Below, piece by piece: positions 2,247 through 6,894 of a stretch of DNA of 64,000 bases. Both the position numbers and the translations under genes were made by a program. Source of the DNA: Escherichia coli (GTDB taxonomy: Bacteria > Pseudomonadota > Gammaproteobacteria > Enterobacterales > Enterobacteriaceae); the NCBI RefSeq assembly GCF_024298765.1, contig NZ_CP101210.1, one strand, 5' to 3'. Position 1 is the first letter of the stretch. Every line of letters starts with the position of its first letter. A model generated the notes under the pieces. That model was not told the origin of the DNA. It did no database searches and saw only the letters and a list, made by a program, of their open reading frames with translations.

Positions 2247-3536
2247 ATGAAAGTATTAGTGATTGGTAACGGCGGGCGCGAGCACGCGCTGGCCTGGAAA
2301 GCGGCCCAGTCGCCGCTGGTTGAAACTGTTTTTGTTGCTCCGGGTAACGCAGGCACTGCGCTGGAGCCTGCACTGCAAAACGTCGCTATCGGCGTAACCG
2401 ATATCCCGGCGCTGCTGGATTTCGCGCAAAACGAAAAGATCGATCTAACCATCGTCGGCCCGGAAGCGCCGCTGGTGAAAGGCGTGGTGGATACCTTCCG
2501 CGCCGCCGGGCTGAAAATCTTCGGCCCAACCGCAGGTGCCGCGCAGCTGGAAGGCTCGAAAGCGTTTACCAAGGATTTCCTGGCCCGCCATCAGATCCCT
2601 ACGGCGGAATACCAGAACTTCACCGAGGTAGAACCTGCGCTGGCGTATCTGCGTGAGAAAGGCGCGCCAATCGTCATTAAAGCTGACGGTCTGGCTGCCG
2701 GGAAAGGCGTTATCGTGGCGATGACGCAGGAAGAAGCGGAAGCGGCTGTTCACGATATGCTGGCGGGCAACGCTTTTGGCGACGCGGGGCATCGCATCGT
2801 TATCGAAGAGTTCCTCGACGGCGAAGAAGCGAGCTTTATCGTGATGGTGGACGGTGAGCATGTGCTGCCGATGGCCACCAGCCAGGATCACAAACGCGTA
2901 GGCGATAAAGATACCGGGCCGAACACCGGCGGGATGGGCGCTTACTCCCCTGCGCCAGTGGTGACCGATGAAGTTCATCAGCGCACGATGGAACGTATCA
3001 TCTGGCCAACCGTGAAAGGCATGGCGGCGGAAGGCAACACCTACACCGGTTTTCTCTACGCGGGCCTGATGATCGACAAACAGGGCAATCCGAAGGTTAT
3101 TGAATTTAACTGCCGCTTTGGCGATCCAGAAACCCAGCCGATTATGCTGCGCATGAAGTCCGATCTGGTTGAGCTTTGCCTGGCGGCCTGTGAAGGCAAG
3201 CTGGACGAGAAAACGTCCGAGTGGGATGAACGCGCTTCTCTCGGCGTGGTGATGGCTGCGGGTGGATATCCGGGCGATTACCACACCGGCGATGTGATCC
3301 ACGGCCTGCCGCTGGAAGAAGTGTCTGACGGCAAAGTGTTCCACGCGGGCACGAAACTGGCGGATGACGAGCAGGTAGTGACCAGCGGCGGGCGCGTACT
3401 GTGCGTCACCGCGCTGGGTCATACCGTGGCAGAAGCGCAGAAACGCGCTTATGCCTTAATGACCGATATCCATTGGGACGACTGCTTCTGCCGGAAAGAT
3501 ATCGGCTGGCGCGCTATCGAACGCGAGCAGAACTAA
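2247..3536 (+). CDS. purD: Phosphoribosylamine-glycine ligase (GAR synthetase)
   Basis: 429-aa ORF MKVLVIGNGGREHALAWK; ATP-grasp fold signature; operon with purH. Confidence 0.97.
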   Translation: MKVLVIGNGGREHALAWKAAQSPLVETVFVAPGNAGTALEPALQNVAIGVTDIPALLDFAQNEKIDLTIVGPEAPLVKGVVDTFRAAGLKIFGPTAGAAQLEGSKAFTKDFLARHQIPTAEYQNFTEVEPALAYLREKGAPIVIKADGLAAGKGVIVAMTQEEAEAAVHDMLAGNAFGDAGHRIVIEEFLDGEEASFIVMVDGEHVLPMATSQDHKRVGDKDTGPNTGGMGAYSPAPVVTDEVHQRTMERIIWPTVKGMAAEGNTYTGFLYAGLMIDKQGNPKVIEFNCRFGDPETQPIMLRMKSDLVELCLAACEGKLDEKTSEWDERASLGVVMAAGGYPGDYHTGDVIHGLPLEEVSDGKVFHAGTKLADDEQVVTSGGRVLCVTALGHTVAEAQKRAYALMTDIHWDDCFCRKDIGWRAIEREQN

Positions 3537-4858
3537 CGCGACAGTTTTGCCAAGAGCGTTTTGCGCGTGATCCCTAACTGACGGGCGGCTTCGGTTTTGT
3601 TGCCGCCCGTTTTCTCCAGTGCCGCAAGAATCACCTCTTTTTCGACTTCCACCAGCGGCTGAATATCCTGACTTTGTACCAGCGGGATCGGCGTACTCGC
3701 AATCGCCAGCGGCAGCTCGCGTTCGGAAATATATTCCCCGGTCAGCAGCACCACCGCCCGTTCCACCGTGTTTTCCAGTTCACGAATATTTCCCGGCCAG
3801 TCGTAGTGAATCAGCAGATCCATCGCCTGGGGCGTAAAACCTTTTACCGCCTTACGATTACGCTCGGCAAAGCGCTGAAGAAAATGGTTTGCCAGCAGAG
3901 GAATATCTTCCCGCCGCTGACGCAGCGACGGAACTTCAATCGCCACCACGTTCAGGCGATAGTAGAGATCCTGGCGAAAACGCCCGGCATTCACCTCTGC
4001 GGCAAGATCGCGATGAGTCGCCGCAATCAGCCGGACATCAACCGAGATGGTCTGGTTGCTGCCGACACGCTGAACTTCGCGCTCCTGAATCGCACGCAGC
4101 AGACGAACCTGCATCATCGGCGAGATATCGCCAATTTCATCGAGAAACAGCGTGCCGCCGTCCGCCTCAACAAAGCGCCCTTCCCGGCGTTTATCGGCTC
4201 CGGTAAACGCCCCTTTTTCGTGACCGAACAATTCAGATTCCAGCAAGGATTCGTTGAGTGCCGCACAGTTGAGCGTTACCAGTGGTTTTTCACTCCGTGC
4301 GCTACTGGCGTGAATCGCCCTTGCGACCAGCTCTTTACCGGTGCCGGAATCGCCGTGGATCAGCACCGTGGCTTCCGATGGCGCGACGAGGGCGATTTCA
4401 CTGAGCAGGTGTTGCATCGCCGGGCTTTTACCGACCATACCGAACTGGCTGGCAGTCACCACAGGCGTTTCAGCATCAATACTGTGCGTATGTGCGAGCG
4501 CCTTTTCCAGCGTCGCCTGCAGGTTATCGAAATCCAGCGGCTTGATGAGATAATCCAGCGCCCCGGTTTTCAACGCTTCTACCGCCGTCTCGACGCTGGA
4601 GTACGCGGTCATAATCAGTACCGGAATCGCCGGATTTAACGCTTTGATCTCTTTTAGCGTGGCAATGCCGTCCATCTCTGCCATTCGCACATCGCAAAGC
4701 ACAAGATCAAAAACCTGTTCCCGCACCTGCTCCAGCGCCTGTCGCCCGCTGTTCGCCAGCGCGACGTTATAGCCCCAGCCGCGCAGCAAAGCCTGCAAAA
4801 TAGTGCAGTGGCTAATGTCATCATCCACCACCAGAATATCGATATTATCGTGCGTCAT
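3533..4858 (-). CDS. zraR: Sigma54-dependent response regulator (NtrC family)
   Basis: 441 aa; receiver domain, AAA+ sigma54 activator motifs ([14 protein letters not shown]), C-terminal HTH; 4-bp overlap with zraS. Confidence 0.95.
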
Positions 4859-6231
4859 CCTTGTGGGTCCTTACGCGTAATAGTGACCGGAAGCCAGAGG
4901 GTGAACGTTGCGCCTTTTCCCTCCTGGCTTACGACCTGAATTGTACCACCGTGTTGTTCAACAATATTATGCACGACCGCCAGCCCCAGTCCGGTGCCTT
5001 CGGCCTTCGTGGTGAAATACGGGGTGAAGATGGCTTCAAGCTGATCCGCCGCAATTCCCTTACCGCTGTCGGTAACGCTGATTTTTACGCCCGCGCCGCT
5101 TTCGCTGGCCGTCACGCTAATCACGCCATGCTGACCAATCGCCTGAATAGCGTTGAGATAGAGATTCAACAGGACCTGAGTCAGCCTGTCCGGATCGGCC
5201 TGAATTTCCGGTAATGTGTCGTTGGCGGTAAAGCGTAACTGGATCTCCCGGCTGTTTGCATCCTGGCTTACCAGCTGTAATGAGTGGCTAATCAGCGTGT
5301 TGAGTTCCACCGCCTGCAAAGCCAGATGCGTTGGCTTAACCAGTTCCAGCAACTCGCTTACCACGCGGTTTAAACGGTCAGCTTCTTTCGCCATCACCTG
5401 CGCCAGTTGATGCGCTTCTCCCCCTGCTGGCGCGCGTTCGGCAAAGTATTTCGCCAGCCCTTTAATCGAGGAAAGTGGGTTACGGATTTCGTGGGCAACG
5501 CCTGCCGCAAGATGCCCCAGTGCCACCAGCTTCTCTTTGCGCTTCATTTCATCCTGCAACAGCTGGCCCGAGCGCAGATATCGGCGATACCAGAAGAATG
5601 ACAACACGCTTGCCAGCAAGACCGTCGCCAGGGCGAAGAGGATAATCAGGGTGTTTCTCTGCTCACGATCTTCGGCACTCACAATGTTACTGGCGTCGAA
5701 AGCGATAAAAATTGCTTGTGGTGTCGCGGCATACTGCTGCATATGGCGCATCCGGTGCATTCCAGCAGCAAACATCGGTTGAAACTGGCGATAAATTTCC
5801 AGAACAGGCTCGCCGTCTGCGCTATCGATCCGCCGCCACGCTTCTTCATCTCCCGGATGTAACTGCTGCATTTCCTGCGGGGAATAAAGCTGTTTTCCCA
5901 CCATGCCGGAGTTGCTATGCATCACGATTGTTCCTTGTTCATCCGTGACCGCAAACCAACGTACACCAGGCTGCCCGGCCATTTCTTCCAGTAATGCCTG
6001 CTGCTGCGCATGATGCATGCGCATCCCCATGCCGACGCGCGAGCCGGATTCGAGAGCACGGATAAGTACACTGCCTTTTTCCAGCAGCGTTTGTCTGGCG
6101 GCTGCAGTCTCGCGCCCGTAATCGCGAATCACTGTCACCGCAAACAGCCCCACCAGCCCAACAATGACCACGGGGAGGATCGCGCTTAACCATTTAGCTA
6201 AGGAGTCTTTAGAACGTTGCATAAAACGCAT
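4855..6231 (-). CDS. zraS: Sensor histidine kinase of the zinc-responsive envelope stress two-component system
   Basis: 458-aa ORF; TM segments, H-box HEIRNPL, HATPase G-boxes; upstream of and overlapping zraR. Confidence 0.9.
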   Translation of the reverse strand: MRFMQRSKDSLAKWLSAILPVVIVGLVGLFAVTVIRDYGRETAAARQTLLEKGSVLIRALESGSRVGMGMRMHHAQQQALLEEMAGQPGVRWFAVTDEQGTIVMHSNSGMVGKQLYSPQEMQQLHPGDEEAWRRIDSADGEPVLEIYRQFQPMFAAGMHRMRHMQQYAATPQAIFIAFDASNIVSAEDREQRNTLIILFALATVLLASVLSFFWYRRYLRSGQLLQDEMKRKEKLVALGHLAAGVAHEIRNPLSSIKGLAKYFAERAPAGGEAHQLAQVMAKEADRLNRVVSELLELVKPTHLALQAVELNTLISHSLQLVSQDANSREIQLRFTANDTLPEIQADPDRLTQVLLNLYLNAIQAIGQHGVISVTASESGAGVKISVTDSGKGIAADQLEAIFTPYFTTKAEGTGLGLAVVHNIVEQHGGTIQVVSQEGKGATFTLWLPVTITRKDPQG

Positions 6232-6329
6232 CTTCTTCTTTGCCTGCTCATCCCTTTCTGACAGCAGAAATCATGCCATCTTTTATCAGCGCTTACCCTG
6301 CGCTGTAACACAAAGGCTTAAGTTTCAAT

Positions 6330-6375
6330 GAGTAAAAATGACTCGCTACCCGCAGCAGGCGAGTCATTTTTACTC
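6330..6375. promoter_or_regulatory. Pair of 17-bp inverted repeats (ZraR enhancer-like sites) in the zraP-zraS divergent region
   Basis: gagtaaaaatgactcgc, 12-bp spacer, then gcgagtcatttttactc: a perfect inverted repeat. Confidence 0.6.
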
Positions 6376-6417
6376 GTTTATCATGCCAGATTACCCGTCA
6401 TATCAGCGTTTCATCGT

Positions 6418-6434
6418 TGGCACGGAAGATGCAA
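6418..6434 (+). promoter_or_regulatory. Sigma54 (-24/-12) promoter of zraP
   Basis: TGGCACggaagaTGCA matches the TGGCAC-N5-TTGCA consensus about 35 bp upstream of the zraP ATG. Confidence 0.6.
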
Positions 6435-6468
6435 TACCCGAAGTAAGACAACCACTGGAGGATTAACC

Positions 6469-6894
6469 ATGAAACGGAACACGAAAATTGCCCTGGTAAT
6501 GATGGCGCTTTCAGCAATGGCGATGGGATCGACATCGGCATTTGCTCACGGCGGACACGGTATGTGGCAGCAAAATGCCGCGCCTTTGACCAGCGAACAA
6601 CAGACAGCGTGGCAGAAAATCCATAATGACTTTTACGCTCAAAGCAGCGCACTGCAACAGCAACTGGTGACGAAGCGTTATGAATACAACGCCCTGTTAG
6701 CCGCGAACCCACCGGATAGCAGCAAAATTAACGCGGTCGCCAAAGAGATGGAGAATTTGCACCAGTCGTTAGATGAATTACGGGTGAAACGAGATATTGC
6801 GATGGCTGAAGCGGGTATTCCGCGCGGTACCGGAATGGGCATGGGCTACGGCGGCTGCGGTGGTGGCAGTCATATGGGTATGGGCCACTGGTAA
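6469..6894 (+). CDS. zraP: Periplasmic zinc-binding envelope stress chaperone
   Basis: 141 aa starting MKRNTKIALVMMALSAMAMG (signal peptide), Gly/Met/His-rich C-terminus; track ORF 6328..6894 is extended upstream across the promoter. Confidence 0.92.
   Translation: MKRNTKIALVMMALSAMAMGSTSAFAHGGHGMWQQNAAPLTSEQQTAWQKIHNDFYAQSSALQQQLVTKRYEYNALLAANPPDSSKINAVAKEMENLHQSLDELRVKRDIAMAEAGIPRGTGMGMGYGGCGGGSHMGMGHW

What the first reader, a model, noticed from the sequence alone, without database searches (positions are those of the whole stretch)
6232..6468. zraP-zraSR divergent sigma54 control region with perfect 17-bp inverted repeats
The region has two perfect 17-bp inverted half-sites separated by 12 bp, and a TGGCAC-N5-TGCA element in front of zraP. 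This matches the expected ZraR enhancer plus sigma54 promoter architecture. It is described biology, and is noted because the ORF track's extended zraP ORF (6328) runs straight through it and should not be taken as coding.
Basis: partly seen in the sequence, partly recalled or inferred. Interest (0 to 1): 0.2.

Follow-up and report, generated by a model that had tools for sequence, protein, structure and literature searches.

The report
zraP–zraSR divergent sigma-54 control region
This is the well-studied E. coli switch between the zraP and zraSR genes, where a mirrored pair of ZraR activator binding sites sits between two outward-facing sigma-54 promoters; it is real and strongly conserved, but already known.

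Summary
Window 6232-6468 is the 237-bp zraS/zraP intergenic region of E. coli and is 100% identical to K-12 MG1655. It contains a perfect 17-bp inverted repeat (6330-6346 / 6359-6375, 12-bp spacer), where about 1.5e-4 are expected per window. It also contains a full sigma-54 promoter for zraP, TGGCACGGAAGATGCA at 6418-6433.

Published sigma-54 ChIP-seq lists exactly these two motifs. The strongest published ZraR ChIP-exo peak maps to 6339-6371, inside the repeat.

In 28 Enterobacteriaceae, only five islands are conserved: the two promoters, the two repeat cores (GTAAAAATGAC and its mirror, 99-100%) and the ribosome-binding site plus ATG at 6469.

The ATG at 6328 exists only in Escherichia, and the upstream frame closes within 3-18 nt in most genera. 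The 188-aa ORF is therefore an artefact, as is a 42-aa ORF (6338-6466) that some RefSeq records annotate.

Verdict: interpretation supported; already known; low interest.

The parts
3533..4858 (-). zraR: sigma-54-dependent response regulator (bacterial enhancer-binding protein), with receiver, AAA+ and Fis-type HTH domains
   Evidence: ORF. RefSeq annotation of an identical genome. Pfam Response_reg, Sigma54_activat, AAA_lid_14 and HTH_8. PDB 1OJL ZraR, E = 7e-178.
4855..6231 (-). zraS: sensor histidine kinase
   Evidence: ORF. Annotation. Pfam HisKA and HATPase_c.
6263..6279 (-). Sigma-54 promoter of zraSR, ATGGCATGATTTCTGCT. GG at 6277-6276, GC at 6265-6264. Predicted transcription start about 6252, giving a 21-nt leader.
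   Evidence: Pattern match. Identical to sigma-54 ChIP-seq site OS39, with distance 21. Listed by Zhao 2010. 97% conserved across 28 Enterobacteriaceae.
6294..6316 (.). Semi-conserved block (AACCCTG ... ACACAAAC in other genera) between the zraSR promoter and the enhancer. Function unknown.
   Evidence: Alignment. Conservation scores. No IHF consensus.
6329..6345 (.). ZraR site 1 (left dyad), TGAGTAAAAATGACTCG. Core GTAAAAATGAC at 6332-6342, centre 6337.
   Evidence: Sequence. Core 99% conserved. Overlapped by ZraR ChIP-exo peak_9, which maps to 6339-6371.
6346..6359 (.). Variable 14-bp spacer between the two ZraR dyads. Its outermost C and G complete the 17-bp perfect repeat in this strain.
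   Evidence: Only 45% identity to the window across genera. Other Escherichia lineages have 15-16 or 18-bp perfect arms.
6360..6376 (.). ZraR site 2 (right dyad), CGAGTCATTTTTACTCG. Core GTCATTTTTAC at 6363-6373, centre 6368.
   Evidence: Sequence. Core 100% conserved. Overlapped by ChIP-exo peak_9.
6417..6433 (+). Sigma-54 promoter of zraP, TTGGCACGGAAGATGCA. GG at 6419-6420, GC at 6431-6432. Predicted transcription start about 6444, giving a 25-nt leader.
   Evidence: Only zero-mismatch match in the window. Identical to ChIP-seq site OS38, with distance 25. Listed by Zhao 2010. 93% conserved.
6457..6461 (+). Shine-Dalgarno sequence GGAGG of zraP, 7 nt before the ATG at 6469
   Evidence: Sequence. 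GGAG is conserved in orthologues.
6469..6894 (+). zraP coding sequence (141 aa; periplasmic, with a signal peptide MKRNTKIALVMMALSAMAMGSTSAFA)
   Evidence: RefSeq annotation. Pfam Metal_resist. The N-terminus MKRN... is conserved in all genera.
6328..6468 (+). Non-coding 47-codon in-frame 'extension' of zraP: an ORF-caller artefact
   Evidence: The ATG is absent outside Escherichia and the frame closes within 3-18 nt upstream of the true ATG in most genera. No Pfam hit. It lies upstream of the predicted transcription start.
6338..6466 (+). Spurious 42-aa ORF, annotated 'hypothetical protein' in some RefSeq genomes. Its ATG is part of the ZraR core.
   Evidence: Its length (14-51 aa) and stop position are not conserved. 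No Pfam hit.

Best explanation
The 237-bp zraS/zraP intergenic region is a bidirectional sigma-54 control module.

Two outward-facing -24/-12 promoters flank a central enhancer. They are PzraS (6278..6263, minus strand) and PzraP (6418-6433, plus strand). The enhancer consists of two mirror-image 17-bp dyad sites for the response regulator ZraR (6329-6345 and 6360-6376). Their centres are 31 bp apart, about three helical turns. In this strain the two sites together read as a perfect 17-bp inverted repeat.

ZraS senses zinc, lead or envelope stress and phosphorylates ZraR. ZraR dimers on the two sites assemble into the active AAA+ ring. The ring contacts sigma-54 holoenzyme, held in closed complex at either promoter, by DNA looping, and ATP hydrolysis drives open-complex formation. 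The site centres lie at about -76/-107 from the predicted zraP start and -85/-116 from the predicted zraS start. The outcome is induction of the periplasmic chaperone ZraP together with positive autoregulation of zraSR.

Shown by published data on the identical sequence: sigma-54 occupancy at both motifs, ZraR occupancy on the repeat, and dependence of expression on zraR and rpoN.
Shown here: the anatomy, its statistical significance and its deep conservation.
Inferred: one dimer per dyad, looping, the exact transcription starts, and any role of the mirrored A-tracts in bending.

The open frames crossing the region (from 6328 and from 6338) are not genes.
For: - Identity: zraR, zraS and zraP are annotated in a 100%-identical RefSeq genome, and the intergenic region is identical to K-12.
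- Repeat: perfect 17-bp inverted repeat with 1.5e-4 expected per window, the longest in the window.
- Promoters: both motifs equal the sigma-54 ChIP-seq sites OS38 and OS39 of Bonocora 2015, with leaders of 25 and 21 nt. Both genes were lower in an rpoN mutant in Zhao 2010. Sigma-54 holoenzyme binds this spacer in genomic SELEX.
- ZraR occupancy: ChIP-exo peak_9 (signal/noise 73) at NC_000913.3 4201786-4201818 is TGACTCGCTACCCGCAGCAGGCGAGTCATTTTT, which is window 6339-6371. Genomic SELEX found this spacer as the single high-affinity ZraR target, in 81 of 86 clones.
- Expression: in a zraR knockout under ZnCl2, zraP falls by 12.7 log2 units and zraS by 3.2.
- Conservation across 28 Enterobacteriaceae: identity to the window is 0.97 for PzraS, 0.99 and 1.00 for the two cores and 0.93 for PzraP, against 0.42-0.56 for the spacers.
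- Geometry: site-centre spacing is 31-33 bp, and the distance from the left site to the zraS GG is 59-61 bp in all genera.
- Cognate activator: ZraR, encoded next door, has receiver, Sigma54_activat and HTH_8 domains and matches PDB 1OJL.
Against: Leonhartsberger 2001 is not held, so the assignment of one dimer per dyad rests on symmetry, conservation and analogy with NtrC.

The transcription starts are predicted from the -12 element rather than read from primary data.

A second ZraR ChIP-exo peak (window 6459-6484) is not explained by the two-site model.

No IHF consensus lies between the enhancer and the promoters, so how the loop is assisted is unknown.

The conserved cores are asymmetric (AAAAATG), which a purely symmetric dimer model does not explain.
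Confidence: 0.93

Rival explanations
1. The inverted repeat acts as a nucleic-acid structure rather than a protein-binding enhancer: a cruciform in DNA, or a hairpin, terminator or regulatory RNA in a transcript.
For: As a single strand the segment folds into a 21-pair hairpin of -18.8 kcal/mol, z = -8 against shuffles.
Against: - No terminator-like site is present: there is no T-run after the stem.
- No Rfam family reaches threshold. The only hit is a sub-threshold plant miRNA hairpin at E = 0.24.
- Both predicted transcription starts lie outside the repeat and point away from it, so it is not part of either sigma-54 transcript.
- Across genera the conserved parts are the 11-bp cores, at 99-100% sequence identity. 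The inner stem positions vary without keeping pairing, and perfect arm length ranges from 9 to 21. That is the signature of sequence recognition, not of a stem.
Confidence: 0.02
2. The region is protein-coding: either ZraP starts at 6328 (188 aa), or the 42-aa ORF at 6338-6466 is a real small gene.
For: Both frames are open. N-extended ZraP entries of 174-186 aa exist in public protein sets. The 42-aa ORF is annotated 'hypothetical protein' WP_001297563.1 in some RefSeq genomes.
Against: - The ATG at 6328 is present only in Escherichia, and in most other genera a stop closes the frame 3-18 nt upstream of the true ATG.
- The 42-aa ORF varies from 14 to 51 aa with different stop positions, and its ATG is conserved only because it lies inside the ZraR core.
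- Neither has a Pfam hit.
- The spacer it would encode is the least conserved part of the region (0.42) and carries an 11-12-bp indel.
- The predicted sigma-54 transcription start (6444) is downstream of both ATGs.
- A strong GGAGG and a canonical signal peptide sit at 6469. A 47-residue extension would bury that signal peptide.
Confidence: 0.02
3. The repeat, or the adjacent semi-conserved block at 6294-6316, is also used by another regulator. This could be a repressor or an architectural protein that makes the two promoters respond differently.
For: A block conserved at about 0.67-0.9 lies only on the zraS side, at -42 to -64 from the predicted zraS start. zraP and zraS respond very differently to loss of ZraR: -12.7 against -3.2 log2. 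zraP expression also changes in a baeR knockout.
Against: No motif was recognised and there is no IHF consensus. The baeR effect may be indirect. ZraR occupancy alone accounts for the repeat.
Confidence: 0.1

Closest known systems
E. coli K-12 zraP-zraSR (hydHG) intergenic region, bound by ZraR/HydG (Leonhartsberger et al. 2001, J Mol Biol 307:93)
   Same: The 237-bp sequence is identical, and so are the genes, both sigma-54 promoters and the ZraR-bound repeat. As I recall the abstract (from memory; the paper was not readable here), HydG binds 'two inverted repeats separated by a 14 bp spacer'. That fits sites 6329-6345 and 6360-6376, which have 14 bp between them.
   Different: Nothing in the control region. 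The zraP and zraS coding sequences of this strain differ slightly from K-12: ZraP is 96-98% identical to the top E. coli hits, and ZraS is 458 aa against 465 aa.
NtrC enhancer of glnAp2 (two 17-bp dyad sites about three helical turns apart, roughly 100-140 bp upstream of a sigma-54 promoter; from established knowledge)
   Same: Two dyad-symmetric 17-bp sites on the same face of the helix. The activator is a receiver-AAA+-Fis-HTH protein. Activation is phosphorylation-driven oligomerisation followed by looping to a -24/-12 promoter.
   Different: The recognition sequence differs: YGRGTAAAAATGACYCR against TGCACCA-N3-TGGTGCA. The ZraR enhancer serves two divergent promoters from one central position, and it sits closer to them (centres about -76 to -116).
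NorR at the norR-norVW divergent region (three GT-N7-AC enhancer sites; PMC2831303, and PMC4987338 Table 1)
   Same: The activator gene lies next to a divergently transcribed target. The sites are GT...AC-ended dyads; the ZraR core GTAAAAATGAC is itself GT-N7-AC. The promoter is sigma-54-dependent.
   Different: NorR needs three sites, activates only norVW through sigma-54, and senses NO directly. ZraR has two mirrored sites and drives sigma-54 promoters on both sides.
Desulfovibrio zraP-like loci (L037, L036; found here)
   Same: The sequence GTAACTTTTTTAC-N20-GTAAAAAAGTTAC lies about 75 nt upstream of TGGCACGCCGCTTGCT, in front of a ZraP homologue. The GTAA...TTAC arms and the 20-bp inner spacer match the enterobacterial layout.
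   Different: The promoter appears unidirectional, with the long ORF downstream of the zraP-like gene on the same strand. The core sequence is different. No experimental data exist, and the neighbouring genes were not characterised here.

Membership tests
Sigma-54 (-24/-12) promoter | GG and GC doublets exactly 10 bp apart, in a TGGCAC-N5-TTGCW context | tested here: met
   PzraP is TGGCACGGAAGATGCA at 6418-6433, the only zero-mismatch hit in the window. PzraS is TGGCATGATTTCTGCT at 6278..6263, with 2 mismatches and GG-N10-GC intact.
Sigma-54 (-24/-12) promoter | Occupied by sigma-54 holoenzyme, and expression depends on rpoN | not testable with these tools
   Published for the identical K-12 sequence: ChIP-seq sites OS38 and OS39, lower expression in an rpoN mutant, and genomic SELEX with sigma-54 holoenzyme.
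Sigma-54 (-24/-12) promoter | Motif conserved at a fixed distance from the gene start in orthologues | tested here: met
   Both motifs are present in all 28 Enterobacteriaceae loci, at -48 to -54 from the zraP ATG and in the equivalent position for zraS.
Enhancer (upstream activating sequence) of an NtrC-family activator | Dyad-symmetric sites about 70-150 bp upstream of the -24/-12 promoter | tested here: met
   Site centres 6337 and 6368 lie at -107/-76 from the predicted zraP start (6444) and -85/-116 from the predicted zraS start (6252). Each 17-mer is a degenerate palindrome, YGRGTAAAAATGACYCR.
Enhancer (upstream activating sequence) of an NtrC-family activator | Two or more sites phased on one face of the helix | tested here: met
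   Centre-to-centre spacing is 31 bp here and 31-33 bp in all orthologues.
Enhancer (upstream activating sequence) of an NtrC-family activator | A cognate activator with an AAA+ sigma-54 interaction domain and a DNA-binding HTH is present | tested here: met
   ZraR (3533-4858) has Response_reg, Sigma54_activat, AAA_lid_14 and HTH_8 domains. PDB 1OJL, E = 7e-178.
Enhancer (upstream activating sequence) of an NtrC-family activator | The activator physically occupies the sites and is required for activation | not testable with these tools
   Published for the identical sequence. ChIP-exo peak_9 maps to window 6339-6371. Genomic SELEX gave a single target, in 81 of 86 clones. A zraR knockout lowers zraP by 12.7 and zraS by 3.2 log2 units.
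Enhancer (upstream activating sequence) of an NtrC-family activator | IHF or another bending site between enhancer and promoter (common, but not obligatory) | tested here: not met
   No WATCAANNNNTTR match with one mismatch or fewer in the window or in 26 of the 27 other orthologous intergenic regions. The single 1-mismatch hit, in E. whittamii, is not shared with any other species.
Protein-coding sequence (extended ZraP from 6328, or the 42-aa ORF from 6338) | Start codon and reading frame conserved in orthologues | tested here: not met
   The ATG at 6328 is found only in Escherichia, and the frame closes 3-18 nt upstream of the true start in most genera. The 42-aa ORF varies from 14 to 51 aa.
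Protein-coding sequence (extended ZraP from 6328, or the 42-aa ORF from 6338) | Recognisable protein family or domain | tested here: not met
   No Pfam match for either peptide at E of 0.01 or better.
Intrinsic terminator or structured RNA | GC-rich stem followed by a U-run, or a match to a curated RNA family | tested here: not met
   No terminator-like site in 6100-6600. No Rfam hit near any gathering score.

The most novel reading that the evidence does not exclude
The enhancer is not the whole story. The semi-conserved block at 6294-6316 (AACCCTG-N8/9-ACACAAAC, at -42 to -64 from the predicted zraS start) occurs only on the zraS side, and no IHF site is recognisable. It could be the binding site of an undescribed architectural or regulatory protein that sets the very different outputs of the two promoters. 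In addition, the Escherichia lineage has shortened the enhancer-to-PzraP arm by one helical turn (51 bp against 61-63 bp). That would be a natural test of face-of-helix constraints in a bidirectional sigma-54 enhancer.
Probability: 0.15. Interest if true: 0.3.

Novelty: already known. Interest (0 to 1): 0.08.

Why it matters
For a genome scan the practical value is quality control.
- It shows that the 188-aa 'extended zraP' ORF is an ORF-calling artefact laid over an enhancer. The same applies to a 42-aa 'hypothetical protein' that some RefSeq genomes annotate at 6338-6466.
- It supplies exact coordinates for both promoters and both ZraR sites.

Biologically it is a clean textbook example of one enhancer serving two divergent sigma-54 promoters. 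The same element is used in zinc and lead biosensors. The small additions made here are refinements, not discoveries: the cross-genus footprint, the conserved 31-bp site spacing, the one-turn shortening in Escherichia, the unexplained conserved block, and a similar layout in Desulfovibrio.

Tried and rejected
- Terminator or hairpin reading. The hairpin is stable, but there is no T-run, no Rfam family, no transcript predicted across it, and conservation is of sequence rather than pairing. Rejected.
- Coding readings (6328 and 6338 ORFs). Rejected on conservation, absence of domains, and the positions of the transcription start, ribosome-binding site and signal peptide.
- A sigma-70 promoter in the region. 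None was found in 6100-6600.
- An IHF site between enhancer and promoters. No conserved match in the 28 orthologous regions.
- A third sigma-54 promoter at the second ATCATGCCA copy (6380-6388; minus strand TGGCATGAT). Rejected because GA, not GC, sits at the -12 position and the copy is not conserved outside Escherichia.
- Further ZraR sites in the 64-kb window. None with three mismatches or fewer to GAGTAAAAATGACTC apart from the two arms.
- Reading the original footprint paper. Leonhartsberger 2001 is not held, and full-text searches for a quotation of its binding-site description found none. The ChIP-exo coordinates in the supplement of PMC7657598 were used instead.

Full report
**What is in the sequence**

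Window 6232-6468 lies between two divergent ORFs: a 458-aa ORF on the minus strand (4855-6231) and a 141-aa ORF on the plus strand starting at 6469. The segment 6100-6600 matches 5,420 of 5,426 complete E. coli genomes. In a 100%-identical genome the flanking genes are annotated zraR, zraS and zraP, with zraP starting at the position equal to window 6469. The 237-bp intergenic region is identical, base for base, to that of K-12 MG1655. Published K-12 experiments therefore apply directly.

**The observation**

The repeat is as described. GAGTAAAAATGACTCGC (6330-6346) and its exact reverse complement (6359-6375) are separated by 12 bp. It is the longest perfect inverted repeat with a spacer of 40 bp or less in the window. 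About 1.5e-4 such repeats are expected by chance.

The sigma-54 element is TGGCACGGAAGATGCA at 6418-6433. It is the only zero-mismatch match to TGGCAC-N5-WTGCW in the 64 kb. The correct register is TGGCAC-GGAAG-ATGCA, with the canonical GG-N10-GC spacing.

A second sigma-54 promoter faces the other way: TGGCATGATTTCTGCT on the minus strand at 6278..6263. Both motifs are exactly the sequences reported as sigma-54 ChIP-seq sites OS38 (zraP) and OS39 (zraS) by Bonocora et al. 2015. That table gives distances of 25 and 21 nt. These equal the leader lengths if transcription starts 12 nt after the GC doublets, at 6444 and 6252. Zhao et al. 2010 list the same two promoters, and both genes were lower in an rpoN mutant. 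Sigma-54 holoenzyme also selects this spacer in genomic SELEX.

**ZraR binding**

The original footprint paper (Leonhartsberger et al. 2001) is not in the library. The supplement of Choudhary et al. 2020 gives ZraR ChIP-exo peaks in NC_000913.3. The strongest, peak_9 (signal/noise 73), is at 4201786-4201818. I fetched those bases: TGACTCGCTACCCGCAGCAGGCGAGTCATTTTT, which is window 6339-6371 and lies inside the repeat.

In the same data set, a zraR knockout under ZnCl2 lowers zraP by 12.7 log2 units and zraS by 3.2. Shimada et al. 2021 found this spacer as the single high-affinity ZraR target by genomic SELEX, in 81 of 86 clones.

The neighbouring gene product ZraR has receiver, sigma-54-interaction AAA+ and Fis-type HTH domains. 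It matches the solved ZraR structure 1OJL at E = 7e-178.

**Anatomy of the enhancer**

Each arm is itself a near-palindrome. The left site is TGAGTAAAAATGACTCG (6329-6345) and the right site is CGAGTCATTTTTACTCG (6360-6376). There are 14 bp between them, and their centres (6337 and 6368) are 31 bp apart. As I recall the 2001 abstract, it describes 'two inverted repeats separated by a 14 bp spacer'; this is from memory and was not verified here.

The arms are therefore best read as two complete dimer sites about three helical turns apart, as at the NtrC enhancer of glnAp2, rather than as half-sites. The site centres lie at -76/-107 from the predicted zraP start and -85/-116 from the predicted zraS start. 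One central element can thus serve both promoters. One dimer per site, assembly of the AAA+ ring and looping are inferred from the family's established mechanism.

**Comparative test**

A scan of one genome per species with a ZraP alignment returned 36 loci. In every enterobacterial locus both sigma-54 motifs and the repeat cores are present.

Mean identity to the window base across 28 intergenic regions from Escherichia, Citrobacter, Salmonella, Klebsiella, Kosakonia and Phytobacter:

| Element | Identity |
|---|---|
| PzraS | 0.97 |
| Left core GTAAAAATGAC | 0.99 |
| Right core GTCATTTTTAC | 1.00 |
| PzraP | 0.93 |
| Inner spacer of the repeat | 0.45 |
| zraP-side spacer | 0.42 |
| zraS-side spacer | 0.56 |

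- The length of the perfect repeat varies from 9 to 21 bp between species, because only the cores are fixed.
- The outer positions vary as Y-G-R...Y-C-R, which keeps each site's own dyad.
- Site spacing is 31-33 bp everywhere, and the distance from the left site to the zraS GG is 59-61 bp.
- The distance from the right site to the zraP GG is 61-63 bp in other genera but 50-51 bp in Escherichia, one helical turn shorter.
- Within E. coli, 4,355 of 5,419 genomes carry the 62-bp repeat segment at 99% identity or better.

**The open reading frames**

The 188-aa frame from 6328 is open only because no stop happens to intervene.
- Its ATG (CAATGAGT) is replaced by GCGAGT or ACGAGT outside Escherichia.
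- In most genera a stop closes the frame 3-18 nt upstream of the real ATG.
- The 47 extra residues have no Pfam match.
- The predicted transcription start (6444) is downstream of 6328.
- GGAGG sits 7 nt before 6469.
- The conserved N-terminus MKRN... begins a typical signal peptide, which an extension would bury.

Extended versions of 174-186 aa do nevertheless exist in public protein sets.

A second frame, 6338-6466 (42 aa), is annotated 'hypothetical protein' in some RefSeq genomes. Its ATG is the ATG inside the ZraR core. Its length varies from 14 to 51 aa between genera. It is also an artefact.

**Rival readings**

As a single strand the repeat would form a stable hairpin (-18.8 kcal/mol). 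Against a structural role:
- There is no terminator-like tail.
- There is no Rfam family.
- No predicted transcript crosses it.
- The conservation pattern is one of sequence, not pairing.

No sigma-70-like promoter and no conserved IHF consensus were found.

**Loose ends**

- A semi-conserved block at 6294-6316, present only on the zraS side.
- A second ZraR ChIP-exo peak over the zraP start codon (6459-6484).
- The strictly conserved asymmetry of the cores.

**Verdict**

The finding is real, its interpretation is correct apart from small details, and it is described biology. Its value is as an annotation correction. Novelty: already known. Interest is low.

Noticed in passing
window 6338-6466 (+): A 42-aa ORF is annotated 'hypothetical protein' WP_001297563.1 in some RefSeq E. 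coli genomes, e.g. O157:H7 PV15-279. It starts at the ATG inside the conserved ZraR core and is not conserved in length or stop position in other genera, so it is probably a spurious gene call.
   Followed up: yes
window 6294-6316: A semi-conserved block (AACCCTG-N8/9-ACACAAAC in other genera) lies at about -42 to -64 from the predicted zraS start, with no counterpart on the zraP side. It has no IHF consensus and I could not assign it to any known motif.
   Followed up: partly
window 6377-6417; loci L007-L033: The spacer between the right ZraR site and the zraP -24 element is 50-51 bp in Escherichia but 61-63 bp in Citrobacter, Salmonella, Klebsiella, Kosakonia and Phytobacter. The difference is about one helical turn. 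The zraS-side distance is constant at 59-61 bp.
   Followed up: partly
window 6459-6484: A second published ZraR ChIP-exo peak (peak_8, signal/noise 34) maps onto the Shine-Dalgarno sequence and the first codons of zraP, at +15 to +40 from the predicted start. The sequence has only weak similarity (7 of 11) to the ZraR core. It may be a crosslink through looped RNA polymerase.
   Followed up: partly
window 6270-6278 / 6380-6388 and 6284-6294 / 6401-6411: The direct repeats ATCATGCCA and TATCAGCG(C/T)TT occur on both sides of the inverted repeat. The first copy of ATCATGCCA is the -24 element of PzraS. The second copy lacks a -12 GC and is not conserved outside Escherichia. This is possibly chance or a vestige.
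   Followed up: partly
window 6407-6418 / 6465-6476: A 12-nt inverted repeat, 92% complementary (CGTTTCATCGTT / AACCATGAAACG), brackets the zraP promoter and start codon. Only the second arm would be transcribed. Significance unknown.
   Followed up: no
L037 2170-2310; L036: Desulfovibrio zraP-like genes are preceded by GTAACTTTTTTAC-N20-GTAAAAAAGTTAC and, about 75 nt downstream of it, a sigma-54 motif TGGCACGCCGCTTGCT. The two-site layout is the same as in enterobacteria, with a related GTAA...TTAC core.
   Followed up: partly
window 4855-6231 (zraS): ZraS is 458 aa here but 465 aa in K-12 MG1655, with the same intergenic length and the same 4-nt overlap with zraR. This implies an internal 21-nt indel between strains.
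   Followed up: no
hits (H12 NZ_CP035882.1; two plasmid places): Strain WS0115A matches only positions 332-501 of window 6100-6600, so its enhancer and zraS side are missing or interrupted. Two copies of the region lie on plasmids.
   Followed up: no
proteins P0003-P0005: N-terminally extended ZraP entries of 174, 183 and 186 aa are deposited in public protein collections.
   Followed up: yes
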